The notes: generated from the sequence alone by a model not told the origin. Counted from the first letter of the stretch, positions 7,666 through 61,086 are shown. The stretch: DNA of 64,000 nucleotides from Chloroflexota bacterium (GCA_005880605.1 VBIS01000160.1:10180-74179), one strand, 5' to 3'. Program-made: numbers and translations.

Positions 7666-11879
<4,214 letters not shown>

Positions 11880-28213: not shown

Positions 28214-28223
28214 GACACAGCGC

Positions 28224-29096: not shown

Positions 29097-29101
29097 TGCG
29101 G

Positions 29102-36914: not shown

Positions 36915-37746
36915 GCCGCGCATCCCCATGGAGCCGACGCTGGAAGAGCTATCGGCGTATCTCGATCACGAGCTGGATGACGGCGCCAAGGCGCGCGTCG
37001 CCGAGCATGTCGCGGGGTGCGCGGATTGCAAAATGCGCCTCGATGGACTACGACAGACCGCCTATGCGATCCGGGCGTTGCCGATGGAGACGCCGCCGCG
37101 GACCTTCACCGTCCCGGCAACGAGTCGCAGGTCGGTGCGCTGGGCGCCCGTCGCCGGCTGGCTCGGGGGCGTTGCCGCGGCGATGCTTGTCATCGTCTTC
37201 GGCGTCATGCACCTGAGCTTGCCGCCGCTTGGCATGGGGACTGCAGGCGCGGCGCATCCGGTCAGCGGAGGCCTTGGTCAGGGGGCCGCGCCCTACGCGC
37301 AGGGCGCGCCCTACCGCCAGGTCGCGCCGCTCGAGGGATCAACGCGCTACGCTCCCGACTCAGCTCTGAGTGCCTCCTCCAGCAACTCCAAGACCGTGAT
37401 GGACGCCCAGAGCTCGTCACGCTCGCTCACGATCAGCACGGATGCCGCCTCTTACCATGCCTCCGGCGTCGTCACCATTCATGTGACAACCAAGGGGCTT
37501 TCCACCGAGGAGGCTTCGTCGGTGCGAATCTTGCTGATGAGGGAAACGGGACAAGGCGGCTATCTCGTCAGACTCGCGGCCCCGTCGAACGCACCGGCGT
37601 TTCCCTCCGACTACCAGGCTGCCTACTCGATCCCGCAAATGCAGCTCCCCGCCCCGGTCGCGGGCAACTACACGCTGCAGGTCACGGTTGACACCAGCGA
37701 CCACTCCGGCCTGGTGGCCTGGCTGCCGTTGACGATTACGCCTTAG
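36904..37746 (+). CDS. Anti-sigma factor with an N-terminal zinc-binding anti-sigma domain (HxxxCxxC), one TM helix and an extracytoplasmic domain.
   Basis: AEHVAGCADCKMRL motif and a TM helix (WLGGVAAAMLVIVFGVM). The gene overlaps the sigma gene stop. Confidence 0.7.
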   Translation: MPSEPRIPMEPTLEELSAYLDHELDDGAKARVAEHVAGCADCKMRLDGLRQTAYAIRALPMETPPRTFTVPATSRRSVRWAPVAGWLGGVAAAMLVIVFGVMHLSLPPLGMGTAGAAHPVSGGLGQGAAPYAQGAPYRQVAPLEGSTRYAPDSALSASSSNSKTVMDAQSSSRSLTISTDAASYHASGVVTIHVTTKGLSTEEASSVRILLMRETGQGGYLVRLAAPSNAPAFPSDYQAAYSIPQMQLPAPVAGNYTLQVTVDTSDHSGLVAWLPLTITP

Positions 37747-38249: not shown

Positions 38250-38325
38250 CCTGAATTCGAGCCTATCTTATCATCGGGTTTTTAAGAGAAAGACAACGGT
38301 TGCGAGATTCCAGCGCGCCTAAACT

Positions 38326-41175
38326 TTGATCGTGACAGCACCACAGGACGAGCCGAAAGCGAGGCCGCGGCTCGTCCTCATCGACGGCCACTCCCTGGTC
38401 TACCGGGCCTTTTTCGCGCTCCCCTCGTTGACCGACAGGAATGGCCGGATGGTCAATGCGGCCTACGGGTTCACGTCGATGCTGTTGCTGGCCCTCCAGG
38501 AGCACCCGGACTACGTCCTGGCCTCGTTCGATCTGGGTGGCCGGACCTTCCGGCACGAGGAGCTGGCCCAGTACAAGGCGACGCGCCGGCCCACCCCACC
38601 CGAGCTCTCGCCGCAGTTTCCGCTGACACGCGATATCGTTCGGGCGTTTGGTATCCCTATTTACGAGGTTCAGGGCGTCGAGGCGGACGACGTGATCGGC
38701 ACCCTGGCGAGGCAAGCCCGCGAGCAGGGCTTGCACAGCACCATCGTGACCGGGGACCTCGACGCGCTGCAACTGGTTAACGAGGACGTCTTTGTCTTGA
38801 CCAGCAAGCGCGGCGTGTCGGAGACGATTCTTTACACGCCGGACCGCGTTCGCGAGCGCTATGGCCTCGAGCCCATCCAGACCGTCGATCTCAAGGGCCT
38901 CGTTGGCGACGTCTCGGACAACATCCCGGGCATTCGCGGCATCGGCGAGAAGACCGCGATCAAGCTGATCCAGGAATTCGGCTCGGTCGAAAATCTCGTC
39001 GAGAACCGCGCGCGCGTCACCCCGCCCAAGGTCCAGAAGCTCCTCGATGAGCACTGGGAGCAGGCCTTGCTGAGCAAGAAGATGGCGACCATCCTGCTCG
39101 ACGTCGACGCCAAACTCGATCTGAGCCACGGCTCCGCCAAGGACTATCGCCCGGACGCGGCCCGCACCATCCTGGCCGACCTGGGCTTCCGCAGCCTGGC
39201 GGCGCGCGTGCCGACCACCTGGAGCGACGGCAGCGCCATGTCGGCGCCACCGATCTTTGCCCCGCCGGCGAGAGAGCAGGGCCGGCTCCCCCTCGACGGA
39301 GAACCGGTGCGGCCGCCCGCGCAATCGACACTGGCCCTCGAGTCGCCGCCGACAGAGGTCGTCACCGTTGTTCGCGAGACGGCCGAGCTCGATCGAGTAG
39401 TCGCTGCCTTTGCCGCGGCCGACCGGGCCGGCTTCCAGGTCGTGACGCTCGATGACGTGCCGAGACATGGCCGCATCGCCGCCCTCGTCATCGGCCTGAA
39501 CGAAGGCGAGATTTACTACGTGCCACTGGCACACGAGCAGGAGCGTTGCCTGGAGGTGCGACATGTTCTTCAGCGCTTTGCCCCGAGCCTCCAGAGCGCC
39601 AAGCCATCGAAGCTCGGCTTCAACCAGAAGGGCGACTACCTGGCGCTCCGTGCCCACGGGATCGAGCTTGCTGGCGTCGATTGGGATCTGCTGGTGGCCG
39701 CCTATTTATTGAACTCTGGCGTTCGTTCACCCAGCCTCGAGGCGCTCGCCTCGGACGTCTTGCATCGCGTCATCGAGGGGCGCGAGTCCTTGTTCGGCAG
39801 CGGCAAGACGGCGATGACCTGCGACCAGGTCGACATCATGCGGGCTGCGGCGTTTTACGGAGACCGGATGCGCGTAATGCTGGAGCTCGCACCGCGACTC
39901 GAGTCCGAGCTCGACCGGCTTGGCAACGCCGAATTGTTTCGCGATCTCGAAATGCCGCTGGTGCCAGTGCTCGCCGAGGTCGAAATTGCGGGCGTGGCGA
40001 TCGACCTCCCCTACCTGCAACAGGTGTCGCGCGAACTGTACGAGCAATTGCAGCGTCTGGACCAGGAGATCGCCGACGTGGCGCATGGGCCGATCAACGT
40101 CAACTCGCCGCAGCAGCTGGCGAGATTTCTCTTTGAAGACCTGAATCTCCCCGGTGGGCGCAAGACGAAGAGTGGTTACTCGACCGACGCCAACGTGCTC
40201 GAGGGCCTGCGCGACCAGCATCCCGTCGTCGGGAAGATCCTGGAGTTTCGACAATTGAGCAAGCTCAAGGGCACCTACGTCGATGCGCTGCCGCTACTGG
40301 TCGACCCGCGCACCAAGCGCGTGCACACCAGCTTCAATCAAACCGTCGCGGCCACCGGCCGCCTGTCGTCCTCCGATCCCAACTTACAAAACATTCCCAT
40401 CCGAACCGAAGTTGGTCAGAAGGTGCGGCGTGCGTTCGTGCCGAGCCGGCCCGGTGACGTCCTGCTCTCGGCAGATTACTCGCAGATCGAGCTCCGCGTG
40501 CTGGCGCATATGACCGACGACCCGGTGCTGCTCGACGCCTTTGCCCGCGGCGAAGACATTCATGCGCGGACGGCGGCCGAAGTCTTTGGCATCCCACAGG
40601 AGCAAGTTACGGCCAATCAGCGGCGCCTCGCCAAGGTCGTCAATTTCGGCTTGTTCTACGGCCTGAGCGACTTCGGCCTCGCGCGCGACACCGGCATGTC
40701 CACGGAAGAGGCGCGCACGTTCATCGACGCCTACTTTCGCGCCTACAATCGGGTTCGCGAATTCCTCGAAGGCATCAAGATCCAGGCCCGCGAGCAGGGC
40801 TATGTCGAGACGGTGCTCCATCGCCGGCGTTATATCCAGGACATTCGATCCCCGAATCGCCTGCTGCGCCAGGGTGCCGAGCGGATTGCCATCAACATGC
40901 CGGTGCAGGGATCCGCAGCCGACATCATGAAGCTGGCCATGATCAGGCTGAATAGCTATATGCACGAGGAGCGCCTTGCCAGCCGCATGATCCTGACGGT
41001 GCACGATGAACTCGTCTTCGAAGTGCCCCCGGCTGAGCGCGCTCGTCTGATCGAAGTCGTCCCCGACCTGATGGCGACGGCGTATCCACTCAAAGTCCCC
41101 CTACAGGTCGATCTCAAGCTCGGGCCCAACTGGCAGGACATGGAGCGGGTGCGGCTGGTTGCCGCCAAGGCCTGA
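38326..41175 (+). CDS. polA: DNA polymerase I (5'-3' exonuclease, 3'-5' exonuclease-like and polymerase domains).
   Basis: LVLIDGHSLVYRAFFA at the N-terminus and the polymerase motifs DYSQIELR and QVHDELVFE. Confidence 0.9.
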   Translation: MIVTAPQDEPKARPRLVLIDGHSLVYRAFFALPSLTDRNGRMVNAAYGFTSMLLLALQEHPDYVLASFDLGGRTFRHEELAQYKATRRPTPPELSPQFPLTRDIVRAFGIPIYEVQGVEADDVIGTLARQAREQGLHSTIVTGDLDALQLVNEDVFVLTSKRGVSETILYTPDRVRERYGLEPIQTVDLKGLVGDVSDNIPGIRGIGEKTAIKLIQEFGSVENLVENRARVTPPKVQKLLDEHWEQALLSKKMATILLDVDAKLDLSHGSAKDYRPDAARTILADLGFRSLAARVPTTWSDGSAMSAPPIFAPPAREQGRLPLDGEPVRPPAQSTLALESPPTEVVTVVRETAELDRVVAAFAAADRAGFQVVTLDDVPRHGRIAALVIGLNEGEIYYVPLAHEQERCLEVRHVLQRFAPSLQSAKPSKLGFNQKGDYLALRAHGIELAGVDWDLLVAAYLLNSGVRSPSLEALASDVLHRVIEGRESLFGSGKTAMTCDQVDIMRAAAFYGDRMRVMLELAPRLESELDRLGNAELFRDLEMPLVPVLAEVEIAGVAIDLPYLQQVSRELYEQLQRLDQEIADVAHGPINVNSPQQLARFLFEDLNLPGGRKTKSGYSTDANVLEGLRDQHPVVGKILEFRQLSKLKGTYVDALPLLVDPRTKRVHTSFNQTVAATGRLSSSDPNLQNIPIRTEVGQKVRRAFVPSRPGDVLLSADYSQIELRVLAHMTDDPVLLDAFARGEDIHARTAAEVFGIPQEQVTANQRRLAKVVNFGLFYGLSDFGLARDTGMSTEEARTFIDAYFRAYNRVREFLEGIKIQAREQGYVETVLHRRRYIQDIRSPNRLLRQGAERIAINMPVQGSAADIMKLAMIRLNSYMHEERLASRMILTVHDELVFEVPPAERARLIEVVPDLMATAYPLKVPLQVDLKLGPNWQDMERVRLVAAKA

Positions 41176-42021
41176 GTGCCCGAGCTGCCCGAAGTTGAGA
41201 CCATCGTGCAAGACTTGCGGCCGCAGCTTGCCGGCCGCCGCATCGAGTCGGTGCAATTGACTCGCGATCCGGCGATTCGCGGCCGACTCGTGCGCTACCC
41301 GAAGGCCACAACGTTCATTCGCCGCCTGCGCGGAAGGACGATCAGGTCCGTGGAGCGCCGTGGCAAATATCTCGTCATGCCGCTGGATAAGGACGGCGAG
41401 CGGCTGGTTGTTCACCTCGGGATGACCGGACATCTACGGGTGTGGGAACCGGAAGAGGCGCCGGTCAAGCACACGCACTTTCGGGCCTTGCTCGATAGCG
41501 GGTTGGAACTGCGGTATGACGACCCCCGGCAGTTCGGGCGGCTGCTGCTCGGTACCCAGGAAGCCCTCATCGCCGGCCGCGCCTTCCCCGCCAGGCTCGG
41601 CCCCGAGCCGATCCACGGGGATCTGACGGAAGCCGAATTCGACCGGATCGTCAAGTCCCGCCGGCGGCCGATCAAAGCCGCCTTGCTCGATCAGTCCTTC
41701 CTGGCCGGCGTGGGCAATATCTACGCGGATGAGGCATGCTTTCGGGCTGGAATCCGTCCTAGCCGGTGGACGCATCGGCTCACCGGGCGTGAACGCCGGG
41801 CGCTCTACTCGGCGATCCAGGAGGTACTGGAAAACAGCATTGCGGCACGAGGCTCGTCGATCATCAACTACGTCGACGCCTTTGGGCTTCGGGGGACCAA
41901 CCAGGAGAAGCTGCTCGTCTACGGGCGAAGCGGCGAGCCCTGCATAAAATGCGGGACGCCATTGCAGGGGACCCGCCTGGCCGGCCGCGGCACCGTCTAC
42001 TGCCGCAAGTGCCAGCGCTAG
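41176..42021 (+). CDS. mutM: Formamidopyrimidine-DNA glycosylase Fpg/MutM.
   Basis: The N-terminus (M)PELPEVE places the catalytic Pro at position 2. The C-terminal zinc finger is CIKCGTPL...YCRKCQR. GTG start. Confidence 0.85.
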   Translation: MPELPEVETIVQDLRPQLAGRRIESVQLTRDPAIRGRLVRYPKATTFIRRLRGRTIRSVERRGKYLVMPLDKDGERLVVHLGMTGHLRVWEPEEAPVKHTHFRALLDSGLELRYDDPRQFGRLLLGTQEALIAGRAFPARLGPEPIHGDLTEAEFDRIVKSRRRPIKAALLDQSFLAGVGNIYADEACFRAGIRPSRWTHRLTGRERRALYSAIQEVLENSIAARGSSIINYVDAFGLRGTNQEKLLVYGRSGEPCIKCGTPLQGTRLAGRGTVYCRKCQR

Positions 42022-42056
42022 GCCGGCCTCGCTGGCCGGTTCTCAGCCGCAGGCTG

Positions 42057-42977
42057 ATGATCACGGCCGCCGCGTTTGCCGCCGGATTCGTCCTGATCGC
42101 GTTGCTGGTGAGCCTTGGCGTCTTCGGCGGCTTCAACTTGCGCCTGACCCACTATTTGCAAGGCCGTGGCAGTTTCGGGCAGGACGTTGGGCTCGGTATT
42201 TTCGCCTATCTGGGCAGCATCGAGCTGACGCTGGTGATCGCCGCCCTGATCGGATTGGCCCTCTTTCGTGGCTTGCGCCTGCTCGCCGTCTTGCCGGTGG
42301 CCGTGATCCTGGTTGCCACCGGGATCGAAATCCTCGGCAAGGTCATCGTGCCGAGCGTCGCTCCCGGCAAAACCTTCCAGCGCTTCCCGGATATTCTGCC
42401 CTCGCTCAGCCACCCCGCCGGGACGTACTCGTTTCCCAGTGGCCACGTGGTGCGGGCAACGATCGCCTATGGCCTCGTACTCTATCTCGCGGAGCGCTGG
42501 GAGCTCTTCGGCCGCGACAGTTCGCGCCTCAGCCCGGTACTGGTGCTGGTCGTCTTTCTTGTCGGGTACGCCGTCGTGTACCTCGGCTGGCACTGGTTCG
42601 CTGACGCCGTTGGCGGCTTACTCCTGGGTCTGACGCTGCTCTTTGGTCTGATCGCCTACCTCGAGCGCAAGCGCACGACTGCCGAGCAGCTTTTGAATTG
42701 CAGGGAGTCGCTGGGGTGGTTTGAGAGTGAACGGCACTACCTACAATTAAGAGGTGCCAAAGTTCTCCTTTACGGCTGGGTTTTCCCCGGCGGGCGGCCA
42801 GCCGGAGGCTATCCAGAAGCTTGCCGAAGGGGTCGAAAAGGGCCAGAAACACCAGGTCCTGCAGGGTGTGACCGGCTCCGGCAAGACGATGGTGGTCGCC
42901 CAGATGATCCAGGAGATCCAGCGGCCGACGCTCGTCATGTCGCCCAACAAGACGCTGGCGGCGCAGCTGTGCAGTGA
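42057..42977 (+). CDS. PAP2-family membrane phosphatase. The 3' end is uncertain: the ORF runs 224 nt into uvrB.
   Basis: Six TM helices with PAP2 motifs (KVIV...PSGH...SRLSP...H). The PAP2 domain ends near 42690. Confidence 0.55.
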
Positions 42978-44814
42978 GTTTCGGTCATTCTTCCCGCAGA
43001 ACGCCGTCGAGTACTTTGTCAGCTACTACGACTATTACCAACCGGAGGCCTACATCCCCCGGAGCGATACCTACATCGAGAAAGACTCCTCGCGAAACGA
43101 TGAGATCGACCGGCTCCGCCAGTCCGCCACGCGGGCGCTGCTAACCCGCCCCGATGTCATCGTCGTGGCCAGCGTGTCGTGCATCTACGGCGTCGGGTCG
43201 CCCGAGGACTACCTCGGCGAGTCCGTCGAGATCCATGCCGGTGAGGGATTCCGTCGCGACATCTTTCTTCGCAAGCTGACCAATCTGCAGTACCAGCGCA
43301 ATGACGTGGACTTCGGGCGCTCGCGTTTCCGCGTTCGCGGCGACACCGTCGACGTCCAGCCGTCCTACGACCAGATCGCGACACGGATCCAGTTCAACGG
43401 CGACGAGGTGGAGCGGATCGTCCAGCTCGACCCGCTGACCGGCGAGGTCATCGGCGACGTCGAGTCGTTCCAGGTTTTCCCGGCCACCCACTACGTAACG
43501 CCGCGGGAGAAGTTGTTGCGGGCGCTCGACGCCATCAGCGAGGAGCTCGAGGAACGGGTTGCTTGGTTCGAGAGCCAGGGCAAGCTGCTCGAGGCCCAGC
43601 GGCTTCGGCAGCGGACCATGTTCGACCTGGAGATGATGCGGGAGACCGGCAGCTGTGCCGGCATCGAGAACTACTCGCGGCACCTCACCGGCCGGCGTCC
43701 CGGGCAGGAGCCCTACACCCTGATGGACTTTCTTCCCAAGGACACACTGATCGTCGTCGACGAGTCCCACGTCGGGGTGCCGCAGATCGGCGGCATGTAC
43801 GGCGGTGACCGGTCCCGCAAGATCCCCCTGGTCGATTACGGCTTCCGGCTGCCGTCCGCGCTTGACAACCGGCCGTTGACGTTTGCCGAATGGGAACGAA
43901 AGGTACAACAGGTGGTCTACGTCACCGCCACGCCAGGTCCGTACGAGCAAGAGCGCTCCCAGCAAACGGTCGAGGTGGTGATCCGGCCCACGGGTCTCGT
44001 CGATCCCACGGTCGAGGTACGCCCGACCACCGGCCAGATCGACAACTTGCTGGGGGAGATCCACAAGCAAGTCGACAAGAAGCAGCGCACGCTGATCACC
44101 GTGCTGACGAAGAAGATGGCGGAAGACATGACGGACTATCTGCGGGAAATGGGCATCAAGGTGAACTACCTCCACTCCGATGTCGATACGCTGGAGCGGG
44201 TCGAGATTCTGCGCGACCTGCGGCTGGGCGTCTACGACGTGCTGGTCGGCATCAACCTGCTCCGGGAAGGCCTCGACCTGCCAGAGGTCGCCTTGATCGC
44301 GATCCTGGACGCCGACAAAGAGAGCTACATGCGCGACGCGCGCTCCCTGATCCAGACGATCGGGCGGGCGGCGCGCAACGTCGAAGGGCACGTCATCCTG
44401 TACGCGGACGGCATCAGCGGCTCGATGCAGCGAGCCATGGACGAGACGGAGCGCCGGCGCAACCTCCAGATCGCCTACAACGAGGAGCACGGCATTACGC
44501 CGGCCACCATCATCAAGGCGGTGTACAACCTGGAGCGGCAGCAATCTCGAGCCATCGAAGACACGATCGCCACGCTGGCGTCCGGGCTGCCTCCAGACGA
44601 GATCGAGCGCTTGATCAAAGATCTGGAGCGTCAGATGAAGAAGGCGGCCCGCGACCTGCAGTTCGAACGCGCCGCCGAGCTACGCGACCGGCTGGTGGCG
44701 CTGCGCCGCGATGCCATGGAATATCGAGACTCGCTGCCGCCGGCGGCCGCCGCCGAGTCGGGCCAGTGGCACAAGCCCAAGACCAGTCGCATGAGGGCGA
44801 AGGTTCGTGGCTGA
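42754..44814 (+). CDS. uvrB: Excinuclease ABC subunit B.
   Basis: [18 protein letters not shown]...GVTGSGKT and helicase motifs. Confidence 0.9.
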
Positions 44815-47671
44815 CAAGAAGGCCCCCAGGGGGCAGCACACCGAGATCGTCATCCGGGGCGCGCGCGAGCACAACCTGAAGGACGTCGACCTCACCATCC
44901 CGCGGGACAAGCTGGTGGTCTTCACCGGGCTCTCCGGCTCGGGCAAGTCGTCACTGGCCTTCGACACCATCTACGCCGAAGGACAGCGCCGCTACGTCGA
45001 GTCCCTGTCGTCCTACGCCCGCCAGTTCCTCGGCCAGATGGACAAGCCCGACGTCGATCAGATCGACGGGCTGTCGCCCGCCATCTCGATCGACCAGAAA
45101 GGAACCAGCCATAACCCGCGGTCGACGGTCGGCACCGTCACCGAGATCTACGACTACATGCGCCTGATGTGGGCCCGGATCGGCCACCCGCACTGCCCGA
45201 TCAGCGGCCACGAGATCACGCGCCAGACGACCGAGCAGATTGCCGACAAAGTCATGGAGCTACCTGCCGGGAGCCGGGTGATGATCCTGGCGCCGGTCAT
45301 CCGCGACCGTAAGGGCGAGCACCATGACGTGCTGTCCGAGGCGCGCAAGTCGGGCTTCGTCCGGGCCCGCGTCGACGGCAACCTCTATGAGCTGACCGAG
45401 CGGGTCCCGCTCGACAAGAACAAGAAGCACAACCTCGAGATCGTGGTGGACCGGCTGGTGATCGACAAGCAGGGCATCAGCCGGTTGCGCGAGTCGGTGG
45501 AGACCGCGGCCAAGATGGCCTCGGGCCTGGTGCTGGTCGTGCCCAGCGACGGTAAGGGTGAGGAGCAGCTCTTCAGCCAGAATTTCGCCTGCCCTCATGA
45601 CGGCTTCTCCATGGAAGAGCCCGCGCCCCGGAATTTTTCCTTCAACAACCCGCACGGCGCCTGCCCGGCGTGCACCGGGCTGGGCAGCAAGCTCGAAATC
45701 GATCCCGACCTCGTCATCCCGGACAAGAACCGGCCGCTCAGCGATGGTGCGATTCGCTCCCTGGGCCGCTCGTCGTATTTCTACAACGACCTGGTCGAGG
45801 CGGTCGCCAATCGCTACAAGATCCCGATGGACAAGCCGTTCGGCAAGCTCACCGTCAAAGAGCGGCAGATCATCCTCTACGGCAACAACGGCGATCCGCT
45901 GCGGGTGAGGTACCAGACGAGCGAGGGACAGCGGCGCTGGTACGAGACCTCTTACGAGGGCATTATTCCCAACCTCGAGCGCCGGCATCGAGAGACCGAG
46001 TCCGAGTTCATCCGCGCGGAGATCGAGCGGCTGATGACGCCGCGGCCGTGCCCCGTGTGCAAAGGGAAGCGGCTCAAGCCCGAATTCCTGGCGGTGACGG
46101 TTACCGATCGCTCGATCATGGACGTCTGCGACCTCTCGATCACGGGTGCCCAGGATTGGTTTAGCAAGCTCCGGCTCTCGGAGCGCGAGCTCCTGATCGC
46201 CCGCGCCATCCTGAAGGAGATCCGCGAGCGGCTTCAATTCCTCGTCGACGTCGGCCTCGACTACCTGAGTCTGGCCCGCGCCGCCGACTCACTCTCGGGC
46301 GGGGAGGCGCAGCGGATCCGGCTCGCCACCCAGATCGGGTCCAAGCTGATGGGTGTCCTCTACATTCTCGATGAGCCGTCGATCGGGCTGCATCAGCGCG
46401 ACAATCGAAAGCTGATCACCACGCTGCTGGCGCTGCGAGACATCGGCAACACGGTGGTCGTCATCGAGCACGACGAAGAGACGATGCGGACAGCCGACTT
46501 CATCGTCGATATCGGGCCCGGCGCCGGCGAGCACGGCGGGAAGATCGTCGCCACCGGGACGTTCGACGATATTTTGAAATCGCCCGAATCGATCACCGGG
46601 GCGTTCCTGCGCGGCGAGCGATCGATCCCATTGCCGACGCGGCGCCGCAAGGGAAACGGGCAAATGCTGGTCGTCCGCGGAGCAACTGAAAACAACTTGA
46701 AGAACATCGACGTCTACTTTCCATTGGGCAAACTGATCTGCGTGTCCGGGGTCAGCGGCTCGGGCAAGAGCACGCTGGTGAGCGACATTCTGTACCGGCG
46801 CCTGGCGCAGCACTTCTATCGCGCCAAAGACCGCCCGGGTGCCGCCCGCGAGGTTTCCGGCCTGGGCTTCGTCGACAAGGTGATCAATGTCGACCAGTCG
46901 CCGATCGGGCGGACGCCCCGCTCCAACCCGGCGACCTACACCGGCGTCTTCACCTATATCCGCGAGCTGTTTTCCGAAATGCCCGAGGCGAAGGTGCGCG
47001 GCTACAAGCCGGGCCGGTTCAGCTTCAACGTCAAGGGCGGCCGCTGCGAAAACTGCGAAGGCGACGGCATCATCAAGATCGAGATGCACTTCTTGCCGGA
47101 CGTCTACGTCCCTTGCGAAGTCTGCAAGGGCAAGCGCTATAACCAGGAGGCGCTCGAGGTCACCTATCGCGGCAAAACCATCGCCGACGTGCTGGACATG
47201 AGCGTCGAGGAGGCGACCGCGTTCTTCGATCGGATTCCGAAGATCAAGCGCAAGCTGCAAACGCTCTGTGAGGTCGGTCTTGGCTATATCCGGCTCGGAC
47301 AGCCGGCGACGCAGCTGTCGGGTGGCGAGGCACAGCGGGTCAAGCTGACCGAAGAACTCAGCCGGCGTGATACGGGGAAGACCTTCTATATCCTTGATGA
47401 GCCGACCACCGGCCTGCACTTCGCCGACATCGAGCGGCTGCTGAACGTCCTGCATCGCCTGGTCGACGCTGGCAACACCGTGGTCGTCATCGAGCACAAC
47501 CTCGACGTGCTCAAGACCGCCGATCACATCATCGACCTCGGCCCGGAAGGCGGGGACAAAGGCGGCGAAGTCGTCGCCGCCGGCACCCCGGAAGAGATCG
47601 TGCGCAACCGCCGGTCCTACACGGGCCAATACCTCAAGCGTGTCCTCGACCCGGAGCTCGCGATAGCCTAA
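44807..47671 (+). CDS. uvrA: Excinuclease ABC subunit A.
   Basis: Two ABC ATPase modules ([23 protein letters not shown]; [11 protein letters not shown]) and zinc fingers. Confidence 0.9.
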
Positions 47672-47675
47672 GGAC

Positions 47676-49547
47676 GTGGCGACCGCGACCCAGAAGGCAA
47701 CTCCGATCACGGAGCGGCCGGAATATCTTCGAGAACGATTGAAGGCCCTGCCGGAGACGCCGGGCGTCTATCTGATGCGCGACGCCCAGGGCCGGGTGAT
47801 CTACGCCGGCAAGGCGCTCAGCCTGCGTAACCGGGTGCCCAACTATTTCCAGGCCTCAAGCGTCCTGCCAGAGCACATTGCGGCCATGGTCGAGCGCGTC
47901 TACGAGTTCGAGGTGATCACCACCGCGAACGAGAAGGAAGCCCTGGTGCTCGAGCAGACGATGATCAAGCGGCATCGTCCTCGGTTCAACATCCGCCTCC
48001 GGGATGACAAGAACTATCTCTACATCAAATTGCCCTTGAACGAGGATTTCCCGCGCATCACGCTGGTTCGCCGGCCGGGCAACGACGGCGCCCGGTACTG
48101 GGGCCCGTACACGCATGCGATCGCGCTGCGGACGACGCTGAAGACGGTCCGTCGCGTCATCCCCTATCGGAGCTGCAAAGACTCGGAGTTCGCGCTCGGA
48201 CGCCCCTGCTTTTACTTTCACTTGAATCTCTGCTCGGCGCCGTGCGCGGGCTTCATCAACCGCGAGGACTACCACGAGCAGCTGAACCAGGTGGCCAGCT
48301 TCCTCGACGGCCGCTCCGACCACGTCGCCAAGCGGCTCAAGGAACAGATGCAGGCCGCGGCTGACAAGCTCGAGTACGAGGCCGCGGCTCGCTACCGGGA
48401 TCGCCTTGACGCAATGGAGCGAATGGCGGAACGGCAGAAAGTGCTGGCCATGGGCCGCTACGACCAGGATCTCTTCGGACTGGCGCGGGCGGACGGCCAG
48501 GGATCGGTCCGGGTGTTCAGCGTGCGCGAGGGGAGACTGTCCGGCTCCGAGAACTTCGATCTCGTCGGCCTCGACAAGGATCAGACCGACGCCGACATCC
48601 TGAATGCCTTTGTCAGCCAGTACTACGTGAACGCGACCCACATCCCGAAAGAGGTCTTCGTCCCGGCCTCGCTCCCCGACCGTGAGCTGATCGAGCAATG
48701 GCTCACCGAGCGCCGCGGGAGCAACGTGACCGTTCGGGTTCCGCAGCGCGGCAAGCAGCGGGAGCTACTGCAGCAGGCCGCCGCCAACGCGCAGGAAACG
48801 ATGCGCCAGTTGCGCATCAAGCTGGACTACGATGCCGACCGCACGGCCTCGCTGCTCAACGACCTGCAGACGCGGCTGGCGCTGCCGACCCTCCCGATCC
48901 GGATCGAGTGCTACGACATTTCCAATATCCAGGGCAAGTACCCGGTCGGCTCGATGGTTGTCTTCGAGGATGGCCGACCCAAACCGGCCCACTATCGGCA
49001 CTTCAAGATCAAGACGGTCCAGGGCGCGAATGACTTCGCCATGCTGCAGGAGGTGCTCCGCCGGCGCTTCAGCCGGCATGCCCGGTCCGAGGAGGGAATC
49101 CCGGAGGAGCCCAGCTTCAGCCACCTGCCCGACCTGGTCCTGATCGACGGCGGCAAGGGCCAGCTGTCGGCCGCGCGCGAGGTGATGGAGGCGATGGGGC
49201 TCGCCTCGGTGTCGACCTTCGGCCTGGCCAAGGAGCAGGAGGAGCTGTTCCAACCCGGCCAGAGCGAGCCCATCCGTCTCCCGATCGACTCGGAGGCGCT
49301 CTTCCTGGTGCAGCGGGTCCGGGACGAGGCGCATCGTTTTGCCATCACCTTTCACCGGGTGGTCCGCAAGAAGGACGCTTTTGCCTCGGTGCTGGACGGC
49401 ATCACCGGCCTGGGTCCGGTCCGGCGCCGGGCGCTGCTCCGCCACTTCGGCGGCATCGACAACATCCGAAACGCGACGGTCGAGGAGCTGATGGCGGTCA
49501 AGGGCATCATCCGGCCGGTGGCGGTCGCCATCAAGGAGATGCTCTGA
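47676..49547 (+). CDS. uvrC: Excinuclease ABC subunit C.
   Basis: GIY-YIG domain ([19 protein letters not shown]), a UvrBC domain and an RNase H-like endonuclease domain. Confidence 0.9.
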
Positions 49548-49551
49548 GATA

Positions 49552-49782
49552 ATGCGGGCCGTGGATCGGCCGGCCCGCCGTTGCTCGTTTTGTGGCAAGA
49601 AGCAGGGTGAGGTGCGGCTGGTGGCCGGCCCCAGCGACGTCTATATCTGCAACCTCTGTGTCGCCCTCTGCAACGAGATCCTGGCTCACGACGTCCCACC
49701 AGAGCGGCCTGAGCCGCCCGGGTCCCCGGGAAAGCGGTCCGGACGGGGGCCCCTCATCGTGACCGAGGTCACCTCCGGCTAG
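49552..49782 (+). CDS. Stand-alone ClpX-type C4 zinc-finger domain protein (76 aa).
   Basis: [34 protein letters not shown] matches the ClpX N-terminal zinc-binding domain (CSFCGK...KLIAGPSVYICDECV.LC). Its ATG is 5 nt after the uvrC stop. Confidence 0.6.
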
Positions 49783-49852
49783 GTCCGAACCGGCGACCCG
49801 GGCCAAAAGTGGCCGAGGTGCCAGCCATGCCGCCGGTTGGCGTTATAGGGGC

Positions 49853-51610
49853 GTGCCGGACTCGCCGAACCTGTCGAGCGCGCTCGGCGAGACCGTCAAC
49901 CATGGGCGGCAGTTCCTCGCGCGCGTCGAATCGCTCGCCGAGAGCCTCTCTGCCGAGCTGGCCAGTCACGAGGAGGCGAGCCGCCGCTGGGCCGGTGAAC
50001 GGCAGGCGATCAATGCCGAGGCGGAAAAGCTGCGCGCCCAGATCGAGGCCCTCAATGCCACCCTGGCGGACCTGCGCAAGACCGTCCACCTCGTCGAACA
50101 GGAGCGCGACCAGGTGGCCGCCGATCGCGACCAGGCCCGGCAGGCGCGTGAGGTCGCCGAGCGCGACCTTGGCGGGACCCGAGAGCGCCTGGCGGCCGCC
50201 GAACAGGAGGCCACCCGTCGCCAGGCCGAGCTCGCTGGCGTGACCGCCGATCTCGCTCGGCTGCGGGACCAACTCGGCGTCGTGACCAAGGACCGGGACG
50301 CCCTGCAGGCCGACCAGATTCAGTGGGGCCTGGACCGGGAGCAGTTGCTCGGCGAGCAAGCGCGCATGAAGGAGCGCTTAGCTGACGTCGACCGCGACCT
50401 CGCGGGTCAGCGGGCCGAATATCAGGCGCTGGTCCAGCGCCATGCCGAGCTGACCGAACAGTCCAACAAGCTGGCAGCCGATTGGGGCGCCCGCCGGCAG
50501 GCGCTAGCGGCCGAGATCCATGCCCAGGGCGAAGAAATGGAGCAGGTACGTAAATTGCTCCAGGAGAGCCAGGAGCGCGAGCGGCGCGTGGTCGGCCTGC
50601 CGCAGGCGACGTCGGTGGCCGGGGCGGCCAGCCCCGAGCAGAGTCACCTCATCAACTCGCGACTCAACGCGCTGGTCGGCTTTTCCAGCGTCTTGCTCGA
50701 CGAGCGGGCGCATCCGCTCAGTGTCGAGGAGCGTCGCGAGTACCTCAAGTATCTGCACGACAGCGCCATCAAGCTGACCGAGACGGTACGCGCCTTGACC
50801 GGCACCCATGCCCCCGCGGACGTCGCCCCGGCTGTCGACCGGGAACGCCGGCCGCCTGACATCCTGGTCGCCGACAACGACCCATCGTCGCGTCAGCGGA
50901 TCGAGCCCTTCCTCAAGCGGGCCGGCTACGAAGTCGTCTATGTCGAGAATGGCCCGCGCGCCCTCGAGAAGGCATCCCACCTTCAACCCCTCGCCATCCT
51001 CATCGACGCACAGCTGCCGCCAAGCGGCGCGCCCGCGCTCGTCCGCGAGTTGCGCAAGGATCCCCGTACCCGCGATATCCCGCTGGTGCTGCTGGTGGCC
51101 CCCGACGCCCCGGCGGTGACGATGGCCGATTGCGAGGTGCTGGTCAAGCCGATCGATCGGCAGCAGCTCGTCCAGCTGATGGTGCGATTCGACCTGATGG
51201 CGGACGGCAAGGTGGCGAAGAAGATGCCCGCCAACCTGCTGGTGATCGACGACGATGCCCAGGCGGTCAGCCTGGTCAAAGCGATCCTGAAGCCGTATAA
51301 CGTCCGGGTCAGCTCGGTCGATAACGCGCGGGCTGGGATCGAGCAGGCGTTGCGCAATAAGCCTGACCTGGTGATTCTTGACCTCGTGATGCCGGGGGTC
51401 GACGGCTTCGAGGTGATCGCCGCCCTGCGCCGCGACAAGGAAATGAGCCGGGTGCCGATCCTGGTTCACACCGCCAAGACGCTGACACCCGAGGACCGGC
51501 AGCGGCTCGAGGGCAAAGTTGAATCGATCGTCGAGAAGGCGGAATTCCAGCCAGAACGCTTCCTGGAACTCCTGCTGAAGCGCGGCGAACGCCGCAAGCG
51601 CGCCGCTTAG
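49853..51610 (+). CDS. Signalling protein with a long N-terminal coiled coil, a HisKA/DHp-like domain, two receiver (REC) domains and no HATPase domain.
   Basis: Heptad-rich region of ~250 aa. SHLINSRLNALVGFSSVLLDE is HisKA-like and carries the His. REC1 has DILVADND...LAILIDAQLP, and REC2 has LLVIDDD...DLVILDLVMPGVDG...K. Confidence 0.65.
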   Translation: MPDSPNLSSALGETVNHGRQFLARVESLAESLSAELASHEEASRRWAGERQAINAEAEKLRAQIEALNATLADLRKTVHLVEQERDQVAADRDQARQAREVAERDLGGTRERLAAAEQEATRRQAELAGVTADLARLRDQLGVVTKDRDALQADQIQWGLDREQLLGEQARMKERLADVDRDLAGQRAEYQALVQRHAELTEQSNKLAADWGARRQALAAEIHAQGEEMEQVRKLLQESQERERRVVGLPQATSVAGAASPEQSHLINSRLNALVGFSSVLLDERAHPLSVEERREYLKYLHDSAIKLTETVRALTGTHAPADVAPAVDRERRPPDILVADNDPSSRQRIEPFLKRAGYEVVYVENGPRALEKASHLQPLAILIDAQLPPSGAPALVRELRKDPRTRDIPLVLLVAPDAPAVTMADCEVLVKPIDRQQLVQLMVRFDLMADGKVAKKMPANLLVIDDDAQAVSLVKAILKPYNVRVSSVDNARAGIEQALRNKPDLVILDLVMPGVDGFEVIAALRRDKEMSRVPILVHTAKTLTPEDRQRLEGKVESIVEKAEFQPERFLELLLKRGERRKRAA

Positions 51611-52440
51611 CCCGGGACTTCCTCCGCGGTCGGTCGGGCTTCCGCCGGTTGCACCTCGCGAGGGCCGGCAAGGCGTTCCGTGCGCAGCAGGTAGGCAATC
51701 ACGGGGAGCGTGAGCGCGATCACCACGAGCGCGGTCACTTGCGCCTGCTTGAGGCCGCCGAGCACGACGATGTTGTCGCGCAAGAAGAAGATGAAGAACT
51801 GGCTGGCGGAGTAGAGGACGATGTAGATCATGGCCAGCATGCCATCGGGGTGAACCCGGGTACGCAAGTTCCAGAGCAACACGAACAGCGCCAGGCTGAT
51901 CAGCAGCTCATAGAGGCTGGCCGGTTGGACGGGGACGTTGAGGGGCCCGAAGGTGTTGGGGTTGGTGTATTCGAACCCCCAGCCGTTCGTCTTGTAGCCC
52001 ACGATGTCGCCGTTGATGATGTTGCCGATGCGGCCGATCGCCTGGCCGATCGTCATCCCGATCGCCCCGACGTCGAGCAGGCTCCAGAAGGGGATGTGCC
52101 ACCGCCATGAGGAGATCGCCACTGCCACGGCTCCGCCGAACATCGCCCCGAAGAAGGCCATCCCGCCTTGCCACACCGCGATGATCTCGGCCGGGTGGTG
52201 CCAGTAGAAGCTCGGGTTATTCTGGACGACGTAGTAGAGCCGCCCGCCGATGATGCCCAGGACGGCAGCCAGCAGCGCCACGTTCATCAACTGGTCCCGG
52301 CTCATGCCCCGCCGCGTCGCCTCCCGCAAGGCGACCTGGATGGCGACATAGAGGCCAAGCGCGATCATGATCCCGTACCAGTGGATCTTCAGCCCCCCGA
52401 TCGTCACCAGTACCGGATCGATCCCGATCTTGATCAACAC
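51607..52440 (-). CDS. lgt: Prolipoprotein diacylglyceryl transferase.
   Basis: Lgt signature (HWYGIMIALG...GGRLYYV...FFG...GNIINGD). Confidence 0.85.
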   Translation of the reverse strand: MLIKIGIDPVLVTIGGLKIHWYGIMIALGLYVAIQVALREATRRGMSRDQLMNVALLAAVLGIIGGRLYYVVQNNPSFYWHHPAEIIAVWQGGMAFFGAMFGGAVAVAISSWRWHIPFWSLLDVGAIGMTIGQAIGRIGNIINGDIVGYKTNGWGFEYTNPNTFGPLNVPVQPASLYELLISLALFVLLWNLRTRVHPDGMLAMIYIVLYSASQFFIFFLRDNIVVLGGLKQAQVTALVVIALTLPVIAYLLRTERLAGPREVQPAEARPTAEEVPG

Positions 52441-52494
52441 GGCCCCAGTTTACGAGGTCAGGGTTGCAGGATTTCCCGAGGGTAATCTGAGCGC

Positions 52495-55588
<3,094 letters not shown>

Positions 55589-55593
<5 letters not shown>

Positions 55594-61002: not shown

Positions 61003-61086
61003 TGCGGCTGAAAGGACTTGAACCTTCAAGGGCTTGCGCCCACCAGGCCCTGAACCTGGCGTGTTTACCGATTTCACCACAGCCGC
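61003..61086 (-). tRNA. tRNA-Leu(CAG), class II.
   Basis: Reverse complement: GCGGCTGTGGTGAAATCGGTAAACACGCCAGGTTCAGGGCCTGGTGGGCGCAAGCCCTTGAAGGTTCAAGTCCTTTCAGCCGCA. It has a 7-bp acceptor stem, anticodon loop TTCAGGG and a long variable arm. Coordinates are +/-1. Confidence 0.85.

What the first reader, a model, noticed from the sequence alone, without database searches (positions are those of the whole stretch)
49552..49782. Stand-alone ClpX-type zinc-finger mini-protein translationally coupled to uvrC
- A 76-aa ORF starts 5 nt after the uvrC stop.
- It reproduces the C4 zinc-binding N-domain of ClpX (CSFCGK...AGPS.VYIC..CV.LC) with nothing else attached.
- Stand-alone ClpX zinc-finger domains could act as adaptor mimics or competitors for ClpXP substrate delivery.
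- Genetic linkage to the uvrBAC block suggests a DNA-damage-related regulatory role.
Basis: partly seen in the sequence, partly recalled or inferred. Interest (0 to 1): 0.55.

Follow-up and report, generated by a model that had tools for sequence, protein, structure and literature searches.

The report
Free-standing ClpX zinc-finger mini-protein after uvrC
A small, strongly conserved gene just after the DNA-repair gene uvrC in soil bacteria of the uncultured phylum Dormibacterota encodes only the zinc-finger docking domain of the ClpX protein-unfolding machine plus a conserved tail peptide, so it probably steers regulated protein breakdown, but its function is untested.

Summary
The ORF is real. 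Pfam zf-C4_ClpX matches at E=5e-16, the predicted fold superposes on the E. coli ClpX zinc-binding domain (ZBD) at 1.3 Å, and there is no AAA+ module. More than 250 small homologues (59-94 aa listed) exist. In all 30 Dormibacterota loci examined the gene directly follows uvrB-uvrA-uvrC. The ZBD is under purifying selection (dN/dS about 0.11).

- **Start and expression.** The conserved start is the GTG at 49561 (73 aa), not the ATG at 49552. That ATG lies inside a conserved extended -10 box (TGnGATAAT), 6-9 nt upstream of the start in 26 of 27 aligned loci. The gene therefore looks like a separately transcribed, leaderless unit rather than one translationally coupled to uvrC.
- **Architecture.** Something else is attached: a Pro-rich disordered linker and a conserved C-terminal peptide, GPL[IV]RTE[VI][IT]S[SG]-COOH.

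No Gram-positive-type LexA box was found.

My best reading (confidence 0.4) is a trans-acting mimic of the ClpX N-domain, acting as decoy, anti-adaptor or bridging adaptor. The link to excision repair rests only on conserved position. I could not check whether Dormibacterota ClpX keeps its own ZBD. No functional study of a stand-alone protein with this domain was found.

The parts
49552..49782 (+).
   Evidence: It is 100% identical to NCBI 'hypothetical protein E6J16_09610 [Chloroflexota bacterium]'.
49561..49782 (+). Conserved coding sequence: GTG start, 73 aa (MDRPARRC...TEVTSG), TAG stop
   Evidence: A GTG or ATG at this codon is present in all 27 aligned loci, and most homologues begin with V/M-D-R-P.
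49576..49686 (+). ClpX-type C4 zinc-binding domain (treble clef)
   Evidence: Pfam PF06689 E=5.4e-16. PDB 1ovx E=9e-11. AlphaFold2 pLDDT is above 90 here. Foldseek matches 2ds8_B at rmsd 1.3 Å and 61% identity.
49582..49593 (+). First CxxC zinc knuckle (C11, C14 in 76-aa numbering)
   Evidence: Invariant in 56 of 56 sequences. Coordinates checked.
49648..49659 (+). Second CxxC at the start of the helix (C33, C36)
   Evidence: Invariant in 56 of 56 sequences. Coordinates checked.
49690..49746 (+). Variable Pro-rich linker ([19 protein letters not shown])
   Evidence: Linker length is 6-28 aa, median 18, with 29% Pro across 115 homologues. Confidence falls away after the domain, with pLDDT below 50 from residue 54 of the 73-aa protein.
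49747..49779 (+). Conserved C-terminal peptide [11 protein letters not shown] (family consensus GPL[IV]RTE[VI][IT]S[SG]-COOH)
   Evidence: E at -5 in 116 of 120, S at -2 in 114 of 120, T at -6 in 106 of 120, L at -9 in 101 of 120. It is in fixed register with the C-terminus in 113 of 120.
49525..49553 (+). Promoter-like element: TCGCCA, 17-nt spacer, TG-n-GATAAT. The TG of the uvrC stop codon doubles as the extended -10 TG.
   Evidence: It is the only hit of the promoter scan in 49300-50000, with 0 expected by chance. ATAAT is exact in 26 of 27 loci, 6-9 nt (mostly 7) upstream of the start, whatever the distance to the uvrC stop.
47676..49547 (+). uvrC
   Evidence: Pfam GIY-YIG, UVR, UvrC_RNaseH and HhH domains.
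42754..47671 (+). uvrB (42754-44814) and uvrA (44807-47671), overlapping by 8 nt
42742..42747 (+). TACAAT -10 box, 6 nt upstream of the uvrB GTG (leaderless-type)
   Evidence: ACCTACAATTA is the only conserved block upstream of uvrB between the window and L001.
49818..49852 (+). Conserved upstream element of the next gene (GTGCCAGCC ... CGTTATAGGGGC, then GTG)
   Evidence: The core CGTTATAG and an upstream GCCAG(C) block recur in 20 of 21 loci (GTGCCAGCC in the window; L014 lacks the element).
49853..51610 (+). Downstream neighbour: 585-aa coiled-coil protein with two receiver (REC) domains
   Evidence: Pfam Response_reg twice. It is present in most loci but absent in the deep-branching L024-L026.

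Best explanation
**What is shown.**
- It is a real, separately expressed small gene (73 aa, about 7.8 kDa) of Candidatus Dormibacterota.
- The product has three parts: a ClpX-type Cys4 zinc-binding domain, a variable Pro-rich disordered linker, and a conserved 10-11-residue peptide at the extreme C-terminus.
- The ZBD is about as similar to the E. coli ClpX ZBD as myxobacterial ClpX ZBDs are.
- There is no ATPase module.
- A conserved extended -10 box sits 6-9 nt before the start codon.

**What is inferred.**
- The mRNA is leaderless and made from the gene's own promoter inside the 3' end of uvrC.
- The domain binds zinc and dimerises like the ClpX N-domain, and it keeps that domain's ability to bind adaptor and substrate peptides.
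- The protein therefore acts in trans on ZBD-dependent substrate selection by ClpXP. It could work as a decoy or anti-adaptor that withholds clients from ClpX. Alternatively it could work as a bridging adaptor whose C-terminal peptide docks to a partner. The layout (folded dimer, flexible linker, terminal docking peptide) is the one used by tethering adaptors such as SspB.
- A role in tuning the stability of excision-repair or other DNA-damage proteins is suggested only by the fixed position after uvrBAC and by the E. coli precedent of UvrA turnover by ClpXP.
For: **Domain identity and fold.**
- Pfam, PDB sequence search, AlphaFold2 and Foldseek agree.
- Identity to full-length myxobacterial ClpX ZBDs is 63-69%.
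- By hand from the alignment, identity to the E. coli ZBD is about 25 of 34 positions over the zinc-finger core. A hand comparison of the E. coli sequence with the myxobacterial ClpX sequences gives the same figure for myxobacterial ClpX against E. coli.

**Selection and conservation.** dN/dS is 0.106, and more than 250 homologues of 59-94 aa were found.

**Adaptor-like architecture.** The tail is disordered and carries a conserved C-terminal peptide in register with the carboxy-terminus.

**Protein binder rather than DNA binder.** The ZBD has a net charge of about +1 and a pI of 8.4.

**Own promoter.** The same TANNNT-N6-7-start layout occurs at uvrB, lgt, polA and whiA.

**Literature.**
- Most known ClpX adaptors dock on the ZBD (PMC5515868).
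- Free ZBD added in trans inhibits RssB-mediated sigma-S degradation (PMC7226468).
- UvrA is degraded by ClpXP after repair (Pruteanu and Baker 2009, as cited in PMC3082913).

**Position.** The gene follows uvrC in 30 of 30 loci, including three loci where the downstream gene differs.
Against: - There is no direct evidence of any interaction with ClpX, ClpP, Uvr proteins or adaptors.
- The C-terminal peptide does not match the known ZBD-binding motifs (SspB LRVVK, RssB-derived LKxh).
- AlphaFold2 did not dock the tail onto the protein's own ZBD.
- The gene has its own promoter and the whole fpg-uvrBAC-whiA-gap region is syntenic, so adjacency to uvrC may be historical rather than functional.
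- No LexA box was found.
- ZBD-like domains occur in many unrelated architectures, so the fold is a general protein-binding module and need not point to ClpX.
- I could not find the Dormibacterota clpX gene.
Confidence: 0.4

Rival explanations
1. It is a small inhibitor or partner of a transcription or signalling protein, unrelated to ClpX. The model is Bacillus CsfB/Gin, a stand-alone dimeric treble-clef zinc protein that inhibits sigma factors. The target might be the coiled-coil double-receiver protein encoded next door, or a sigma factor.
For: - CsfB is the one characterised free-standing protein whose dimeric fold is most similar to the ClpX N-domain (PMC5890618).
- zf-C4_ClpX occurs as an accessory domain on cyanobacterial sigma factors (PMC11119718).
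- The response-regulator gene follows the mini-gene in most loci.
- The three deep-branching loci that lack this gene also lack the canonical tail motif.
- Receiver-type adaptors do dock on the ClpX N-domain. This is documented for RssB (PMC7226468); for CpdR it rests on my own knowledge.
Against: - The response-regulator gene has its own conserved promoter-like element.
- The co-absence of that gene and the tail motif amounts to a single phylogenetic event.
- Pfam gives no match to the Gin family.
- The ZBD here is roughly 74% identical to true ClpX ZBDs over the zinc-finger core (hand count), whereas CsfB is only about 20% identical. That argues for ClpX-like ligands.
Confidence: 0.2
2. It is an accessory factor of nucleotide excision repair. 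It would bind UvrC, UvrB or UvrA, or damaged DNA, through the zinc finger and/or the tail, independently of proteolysis.
For: - The position immediately after uvrBAC is invariant in 30 of 30 loci, and it survives gain or loss of the downstream gene.
- The 64-kb window is rich in DNA replication and repair genes: pcrA, ligA, dnaE, polA, fpg.
- Treble-clef fingers can bind nucleic acids (general knowledge).
Against: - The gene has a separate promoter.
- The domain is only weakly basic.
- No such factor is known in well-studied UvrABC systems.
- The family was found only in Dormibacterota-like contigs.
- The wider region is syntenic, so adjacency carries little weight.
Confidence: 0.15
3. It is the detached N-domain of a split ClpX. 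Dormibacterota ClpX would lack its own ZBD, and this protein would supply it in trans, docking through the C-terminal peptide.
For: - The ZBD is as ClpX-like as those of real ClpX proteins.
- A conserved terminal peptide could serve as the tether.
- I found no Dormibacterota ClpX with a ZBD, although the searches were not designed to find one reliably.
Against: - The gene is not next to any clpX or clpP gene, and there is none in the window or the loci.
- The tail does not resemble the linker that joins the ZBD to the AAA+ module (the LPxPxEI region) in the ClpX sequences seen.
- Stand-alone ZBD families also exist in Chloroflexota, a phylum whose ClpX proteins carry a ZBD.
- The ZBD is near-universal in bacterial ClpX (general knowledge).
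Confidence: 0.08
4. It is a redox- or zinc-sensing small protein. The Cys4-Zn site would be oxidised under oxidative or disulfide stress, switching binding of the tail or domain on or off.
For: - The protein has five conserved cysteines: four zinc ligands plus the conserved LC.
- From my own knowledge, the ClpX ZBD is oxidant-sensitive in Bacillus and this stabilises Spx.
- Nearby genes include fpg, which repairs oxidative base damage.
Against: There is no specific evidence. The same cysteines are simply those of every ClpX ZBD. This reading is also compatible with the main explanation rather than exclusive of it.
Confidence: 0.07
5. It is a chance ORF in GC-rich DNA with no function.
For: Many spurious overlapping ORFs exist in this 66% GC window.
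Against: The Pfam E-value is 5e-16, dN/dS is 0.11, the codon-position entropy pattern fits coding sequence, and more than 250 homologues are conserved across species whose UvrC proteins are down to about 80% identical.
Confidence: 0.01

Closest known systems
N-terminal zinc-binding domain of ClpX (E. coli residues 1-60; PDB 1OVX, 2DS5-2DS8)
   Same: It has the same Pfam family, the same CxxC...CxxC zinc ligands and the same predicted treble-clef fold (rmsd 1.3 Å). Identity is about 74% over the zinc-finger core.
   Different: It is not attached to an AAA+ ring. It has a one-residue shift in the beta-hairpin ([10 protein letters not shown] versus EVRKLIAGPS-). CDEC becomes C[NH]LC. It carries its own conserved C-terminal peptide.
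Tethering adaptors of ClpXP such as SspB (dimeric body, flexible linker, C-terminal ClpX-binding peptide)
   Same: The three-part layout is the same: a folded (probably dimeric) domain, a disordered linker of variable length, and a short conserved peptide at the very C-terminus.
   Different: The folded part is itself a ZBD rather than a substrate-binding domain. The terminal peptide (GPLIRTEVISS) does not match LRVVK. No binding was tested.
Anti-adaptors (IraD, IraM, IraP), and recombinant free ZBD used as a competitor in vitro
   Same: The proposed mode of action is the same: a small trans-acting protein that blocks delivery of clients to ClpXP. Free ZBD does this for RssB and sigma-S (PMC7226468).
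   Different: The Ira proteins are unrelated in sequence and bind RssB rather than mimicking ClpX. To my knowledge and in my searches, no natural ZBD decoy has been described.
CsfB/Gin of Bacillus subtilis (PDB 5N7Y)
   Same: It is a free-standing small zinc protein with a dimeric treble-clef fold most similar to the ClpX N-domain and a low-complexity C-terminal tail (PMC5890618).
   Different: It is only about 20% identical to the ClpX ZBD and is not in PF06689. It is an anti-sigma factor specific to sporulation.
Database entries named 'ClpX C4-type zinc finger protein', and small ZBD-only phage families (phrog_6797, phrog_12435, phrog_5259)
   Same: These are also stand-alone or tandem zf-C4_ClpX proteins. 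The search found 7870 clusters at 50% identity with E<=1e-3, though that count is not split between true ClpX and other architectures. The top 150 are all non-ClpX architectures.
   Different: None has a known function. The Chloroflexota 'MARRQ' family has no conserved tail and sits in mixed genomic contexts.

Membership tests
Pfam PF06689 zf-C4_ClpX (ClpX N-terminal zinc-binding domain) | HMM score above the gathering threshold | tested here: met
   58.6 bits against 27, E=5.4e-16, profile positions 1-38 of 39.
Pfam PF06689 zf-C4_ClpX | Four zinc-ligand cysteines, CxxC-(18)-CxxC | tested here: met
   C11, C14, C33 and C36 are invariant in 56 of 56 homologues.
Pfam PF06689 zf-C4_ClpX | Treble-clef fold: two beta-hairpins plus a C-terminal helix | tested here: met
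   The AlphaFold2 model has pLDDT above 90 over the domain. The top Foldseek hits are the ClpX ZBD crystal structures, rmsd 1.3-2.6 Å.
Pfam PF06689 zf-C4_ClpX | Zinc binding and constitutive dimerisation | not testable with these tools
   This needs metal analysis and SEC-MALS or a multimer prediction. Only monomer prediction was available.
ClpX AAA+ unfoldase (NCBIfam TIGR00382 / NF003745) | AAA+ ATPase module with Walker motifs and the IGF loop; score above the equivalog cut-off | tested here: not met
   36 bits against a cut-off of 371, and only model positions 3-47 match. The ORF stops after 73-76 aa.
SspB-type tethering adaptor | C-terminal ClpX-binding peptide matching LRVVK or L[RK]xh | tested here: not met
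   The tail consensus is GPL[IV]RTE[VI][IT]S[SG]. Only the layout resembles SspB.
CsfB/Gin anti-sigma factor family | Sequence membership in the Gin family | tested here: not met
   The Pfam scan at E<=0.01 returns only zf-C4_ClpX.
LexA/SOS regulon member | LexA operator upstream of the gene or operon | tested here: inconclusive
   No GAAC-N4-GTTC box (one mismatch allowed) lies near uvrB or the mini-gene, and matches in the window are at chance level: 22 observed against 22.6 expected. There is no inverted repeat at either promoter. The LexA motif of this phylum is unknown.
Leaderless gene with its own promoter | -10 element ending 6-9 nt upstream of the start codon, with no Shine-Dalgarno sequence | tested here: met
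   TGnGATAAT is exact (ATAAT) in 26 of 27 loci, 6-9 nt from the GTG/ATG. The nearest AAGGAG is 22 nt upstream of the GTG.
Leaderless gene with its own promoter | Mapped transcription start at the start codon | not testable with these tools
   This needs 5' end mapping in metatranscriptomes or a heterologous host.
Translationally coupled gene pair (uvrC and mini-gene) | Conserved overlap or near-abutment of stop and start | tested here: not met
   The ATG at 49552 has a counterpart in only 4 of 27 loci. The conserved start lies 13-40 nt after the uvrC stop.

The most novel reading that the evidence does not exclude
This would be the first natural decoy or plug-in copy of the ClpX N-domain. It would be a leaderless, separately regulated mini-protein that competes with or extends ClpX's own docking platform. 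Through its conserved C-terminal peptide it would couple that activity to a specific partner, such as excision-repair proteins, the neighbouring double-receiver protein or another protease. It would also be the first handle on a very large, uncharacterised class of ZBD-only and tandem-ZBD proteins found in bacteria and phages.
Probability: 0.25. Interest if true: 0.65.

Novelty: new variant of a known kind. Interest (0 to 1): 0.4.

Why it matters
ClpXP substrate choice is largely set by what docks on the ClpX zinc-binding domain. A cell that makes extra free copies of that domain, from a separate promoter and with a conserved docking tail, would have a simple way to re-route or block regulated proteolysis.

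Proteins of this type are common in sequence databases, including tandem arrays, fusions and phage versions, but I found no functional study of any of them. This family has several features that make it a good entry point for in vitro work:
- it is small;
- its motif is clearly defined;
- it is conserved across a phylum;
- it has a fixed neighbour, uvrC.

The organisms are uncultured, however, so tests would have to be biochemical or in a heterologous host.

The locus also illustrates leaderless promoters embedded in the 3' end of an upstream gene. Here the uvrC stop codon supplies the TG of the extended -10 box.

Tried and rejected
1. **Looking for clpX or clpP.** tblastn with a myxobacterial ClpX against the window and all Dormibacterota loci found only the mini-gene.
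2. **Finding the Dormibacterota ClpX elsewhere.**
   - The genome scan returned myxobacterial ClpX genes.
   - The metagenome scan returned 58 full-length ClpX genes.
   - Tetranucleotide and codon-usage comparison showed that none resembles the window's lineage.
   - Cluster look-ups gave organism names for only two of the eight clusters found: Anaerolineae and Dehalococcoidia.
   - The split-ClpX rival therefore remains untested. I ran no further search on it because the ranking would be dominated by the query's own phylum.
3. **SOS box.** No Gram-positive-type LexA box or palindrome lies at the uvrB or mini-gene promoters.
4. **A general link between stand-alone ZBDs and DNA damage.** A second family in Chloroflexota lies near lexA in 2 contigs. 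In the other contigs examined it lies next to an SF1 helicase, an AAA ATPase or metabolic genes, or on contigs too short to show any informative neighbour. There is no rule.
5. **Tail docking.** AlphaFold2 left the tail disordered.
6. **The tail motif elsewhere.** It was not found elsewhere in the six-frame translation of the window.
7. **Other libraries.** Rfam and PADLOC gave nothing relevant.
8. **Literature.** Searches for stand-alone ClpX zinc-finger proteins found no functional study.

Full report
**Observation**

The ORF reported at 49552..49782 on the + strand is present and encodes 76 aa. The uvrC stop codon TGA is at 49545-49547, so the ATG at 49552 begins at the fifth base after it.

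- Pfam assigns residues 9-45 to zf-C4_ClpX, with E=5.4e-16 and 58.6 bits against a cut-off of 27.
- The NCBIfam ClpX equivalog models match only their first ~47 positions and score ten-fold below their cut-offs. This is a ZBD without the ATPase.
- The upstream gene is a complete UvrC, with GIY-YIG, UVR, two RNase-H-like domains and HhH.

**Is it a real gene?**

- A search of the large protein collection returned 256 proteins at E<=1e-3. The 120 listed are 59-94 aa long and carry only PF06689.
- One of them is 100% identical and is named 'hypothetical protein E6J16_09610 [Chloroflexota bacterium]'.
- Over the 43 ZBD codons of 27 species-level loci, mean dN is 0.096 and mean dS is 0.90, a ratio of 0.106.
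- Column entropy is 0.22, 0.19 and 0.99 for codon positions 1, 2 and 3.
- The overlapping antisense ORFs are therefore by-products of high G+C content.

**Lineage and synteny**

Record titles of the genome-collection hits place the family in Candidatus Dormibacterota. Older NCBI records label these 'Chloroflexi bacterium'.

- In the window and in L001-L026 the order is uvrB-uvrA-uvrC-mini.
- Three more divergent members, P0161, P0151 and P0136, are also preceded by uvrC. That makes 30 of 30 loci.
- Downstream, most loci have a 585-aa coiled-coil protein with two receiver domains, then lgt on the opposite strand, whiA, gap and pgk.
- In the deep-branching L024-L026 (UvrC about 81% identical) the receiver protein is absent and lgt follows directly.
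- The uvrC-mini junction has therefore survived at least one change downstream. Even so, the region as a whole is syntenic, which limits what adjacency can prove.
- The remaining genome hits, L027-L039, are ordinary full-length ClpX genes of Myxococcota. L040 is an actinobacterial protein with a C-terminal ZBD.

**Start codon and expression**

- In 27 aligned loci the conserved start is a GTG or ATG at the codon for V/M of 'VDRP...'. In the window this is the GTG at 49561.
- An ATG equivalent to 49552 exists in only four loci, and it is part of the sequence GATAAT-G.
- The pentamer ATAAT is exact in 26 of 27 loci and lies 6-9 nt, mostly 7, upstream of the conserved start. This holds even in L002, L005, L010 and L014, where the uvrC stop is 30-40 nt further upstream.
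- By eye, most loci also have TG one base before the hexamer. In the common arrangement this is the TG of the uvrC stop codon.
- The consensus scan reports exactly this site, TCGCCA-17-GATAAT with TG at 49525-49553, as the only promoter-like match in 49300-50000. Zero are expected from shuffles.
- There is no terminator-like site there.
- The only Shine-Dalgarno-like sequence, AAGGAG, lies within the uvrC codons IKE, 22 nt from the GTG.
- The same TANNNT-N6-7-start layout is seen at uvrB, where TACAAT is the only conserved block upstream of uvrB between the window and L001. It is also seen at lgt, polA and whiA. In contrast, gap has a classical GGAGG.
- The downstream receiver gene likewise has its own conserved upstream element.

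My inference is that the mini-gene is a separate, leaderless transcription unit whose promoter is embedded in the end of uvrC. It is not a gene translationally coupled to uvrC. No transcript data were available.

**Anatomy of the protein**

- Alignments show an invariant ZBD core, with the zinc ligands C11, C14, C33 and C36, plus F13, G26, P27, L39 and C40 (76-aa numbering). The same columns are invariant in the 56-sequence alignment.
- AlphaFold2 with a 56-sequence alignment gives pLDDT above 90 over the domain and below 50 for residues 54-73.
- The best Foldseek matches are the E. coli ClpX ZBD crystal structures, for example 2ds8_B at rmsd 1.3 Å over 41 residues and 61% identity. The best sequence match in the PDB is 1ovx at E=9e-11.
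- After the domain comes a linker of 6-28 residues, median 18, with 29% proline.
- The C-terminus carries a peptide conserved in register with the carboxy-terminus, G-P-L-[IV]-R-T-E-[VI]-[IT]-S-[SG]. E at -5 occurs in 116 of 120 sequences, S at -2 in 114, T at -6 in 106 and L at -9 in 101.
- Short variants that have lost most of the linker still end in AEVTSP or AEVLST.
- The deep-branching loci L024-L026 have divergent tails.
- The protein is about 7.8 kDa with pI 8.4, and the ZBD has a net charge near +1. That does not look like a dedicated DNA binder.

**How it probably works**

The domain is about as similar to bona fide ClpX ZBDs from distant phyla as those are to each other: 63-69% to myxobacterial ClpX and, by hand, about 25 of 34 core positions to E. 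coli. This suggests that it is held to ClpX-like binding surfaces.

The literature offers several relevant points:
- Most known ClpX adaptors dock on the ZBD (PMC5515868).
- Recombinant ZBD dimerises, and when added in trans it inhibits RssB-dependent sigma-S degradation (PMC7226468).
- In E. coli, UvrA is removed by ClpXP once repair is finished (Pruteanu and Baker 2009, as cited in PMC3082913).

The three-part layout of folded dimer, flexible linker and terminal peptide is that of tethering adaptors such as SspB. I therefore favour a trans-acting mimic of the ClpX N-domain. It would act either as a decoy or anti-adaptor, or as a bridging adaptor whose tail docks to a partner.

Every step beyond 'it is a ClpX-type ZBD with a disordered linker and a conserved terminal peptide' is inference. 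The tail matches no known ZBD-binding motif. AlphaFold2 did not dock it on its own domain. I give this reading a confidence of 0.4.

**Rivals**

- (a) A CsfB-like regulator. Bacillus CsfB/Gin is a free-standing dimeric treble-clef protein whose fold is closest to the ClpX N-domain, and it inhibits sigma factors (PMC5890618). zf-C4_ClpX also decorates cyanobacterial sigma factors (PMC11119718). The neighbouring double-receiver protein is a candidate partner, and its absence coincides with loss of the tail motif in L024-L026. That coincidence is a single phylogenetic event.
- (b) A proteolysis-independent excision-repair accessory factor.
- (c) A detached N-domain of a ZBD-less ClpX. I could not test this.
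- (d) A redox or zinc sensor.
- (e) A chance ORF, which is excluded.

**The unresolved check**

I could not locate a Dormibacterota clpX.

- None is in the window or the flanks.
- The exhaustive representative search lists no ClpX-length protein among its best 150 hits. If a Dormibacterota ClpX ZBD exists, it is therefore not an especially close relative of the mini-protein.
- A metagenome scan gave 58 full-length ClpX genes, all with a ZBD. By tetranucleotide and codon usage none belongs to this lineage.
- Cluster look-ups gave organism names for only two of the eight clusters found: Anaerolineae and Dehalococcoidia.

**SOS link**

GAAC-N4-GTTC, allowing one mismatch, occurs at chance frequency in the window: 22 observed against 22.6 expected. 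None lies near uvrB or the mini-gene. There are no inverted repeats at either promoter. The LexA motif of this phylum is unknown, so this result is negative but not final.

**Wider picture and novelty**

- The representative search finds 7870 clusters at 50% identity with E<=1e-3. The top 150 are non-ClpX architectures. They include stand-alone minis, tandem arrays of 2-5 ZBDs, and fusions, for example to an Hsp70-like/Sel1 protein and to aspartate carbamoyltransferase.
- PHROGs holds three small phage families of this type, with no informative annotation (two 'unknown function', one labelled only 'protease').
- A second stand-alone family in Chloroflexota ('MARRQ...') has no conserved tail. 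It lies near lexA in two contigs but elsewhere in others.
- Full-text searches found no functional study of any stand-alone protein with this domain.
- Databases already label such proteins 'ClpX C4-type zinc finger protein'.
- I therefore class this as a new variant of a known kind. The domain is known. The free-standing, tail-bearing, uvrC-adjacent, leaderless family is not described.

**Verdict**

The translational-coupling and SOS ideas do not. The function remains inferred. I score interest at 0.4. This is a clean, testable entry point into an unexplored class of ClpX N-domain mimics, but the evidence for mechanism is circumstantial and the organism is uncultured.

Noticed in passing
window 42742-42756, 49545-49563, 52440-52460 (- strand), 38320-38334, 52477-52497: Several genes have a TANNNT box 6-8 nt before the start codon and no Shine-Dalgarno sequence. 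These are uvrB (TACAAT), the mini-gene (GATAAT), lgt (TAAACT), polA (TAAACT, which suggests the real start is the GTG at 38332) and whiA (GGTAAT). In contrast, gap has GGAGG. Leaderless initiation seems common in this lineage. The uvrC stop codon supplies the TG of an extended -10 box.
   Followed up: partly
window 49853-51610, with a conserved upstream element at 49818-49852: The downstream gene encodes a 585-aa protein with a long N-terminal coiled coil, a segment that looks to me like a histidine-kinase dimerisation (DHp) region (SHLINSRLNAL...; not detected by Pfam), and two receiver domains. Pfam detects no output domain. Its core upstream element, CGTTATAG with an upstream GCCAG(C) block, recurs in 20 of 21 loci. 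The gene is absent in the deep-branching loci L024-L026.
   Followed up: partly
window 41949-42977 versus L001 63-1118: The PAP2 ORF runs 342 aa and overlaps the first ~220 nt of uvrB. The L001 orthologue is 217 aa and is followed by a 122-aa gene on the minus strand. This may be a frameshift, or it may be ORF over-extension in GC-rich DNA.
   Followed up: no
window 7666-11879, 19770-23375, 38326-42021: The window is unusually rich in DNA replication and repair genes besides uvrBAC. It holds pcrA/uvrD and ligA (overlapping stop and start), dnaE, and polA followed directly by fpg (stop and start abut).
   Followed up: partly
window 47676-55593: The order uvrC-(mini, receiver protein, lgt)-whiA-gap-pgk recalls the uvrC-rapZ-yvcK-whiA-gap-pgk-tpi cluster of Actinobacteria and Firmicutes (my own knowledge). 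Here rapZ and yvcK are missing, and the mini-gene and receiver gene occupy their place.
   Followed up: no
contigs of P0255 and P0274 (no DNA held); L046, L045, L049: A different stand-alone ZBD family in Chloroflexota/Ktedonobacterales ('MARRQ...CSFCGK...') lies 150 nt downstream of lexA in one contig and 1.6 kb from lexA in another. Other members sit next to an SF1 helicase fragment, an AAA ATPase or metabolic genes.
   Followed up: partly
proteins P0121, P0122, P0145, P0180, P0139: ZBD-like domains occur in tandem arrays of 2-5 copies. They also occur fused to an Hsp70-like/Sel1-repeat protein (two C-terminal ZBDs) and to aspartate carbamoyltransferase (two N-terminal ZBDs). None of the top 150 representative hits is a ClpX.
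   Followed up: no
L006, L023; protein P0109: Some contigs titled 'Candidatus Binatus sp.' and 'uncultured Actinomycetes' carry the Dormibacterota-type uvrC-mini-receiver-lgt-whiA block, with UvrC 78-92% identical to the window. A mini-protein of the same family is named 'Candidatus Acidoferrum sp.' by NCBI (its contig was not examined). These are probably binning or labelling errors.
   Followed up: no
window 12063-15509; 23793-30100; 36904-37746; 61003-61086 (-): Other content of the window includes an 1148-aa MASE3-PAS-GAF-GGDEF-EAL signalling protein, a MoxR (AAA_3)/VWA/BatA cluster, a zf-HC2 anti-sigma-like protein, and one tRNA.
   Followed up: no
L016, L020, L022 (mini-genes of 52 aa): Three related genomes have lost almost the whole linker and the GPLxR part of the tail but keep a terminal AEVTSP or AEVLST. 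This suggests the last five or six residues are the essential part of the motif.
   Followed up: no
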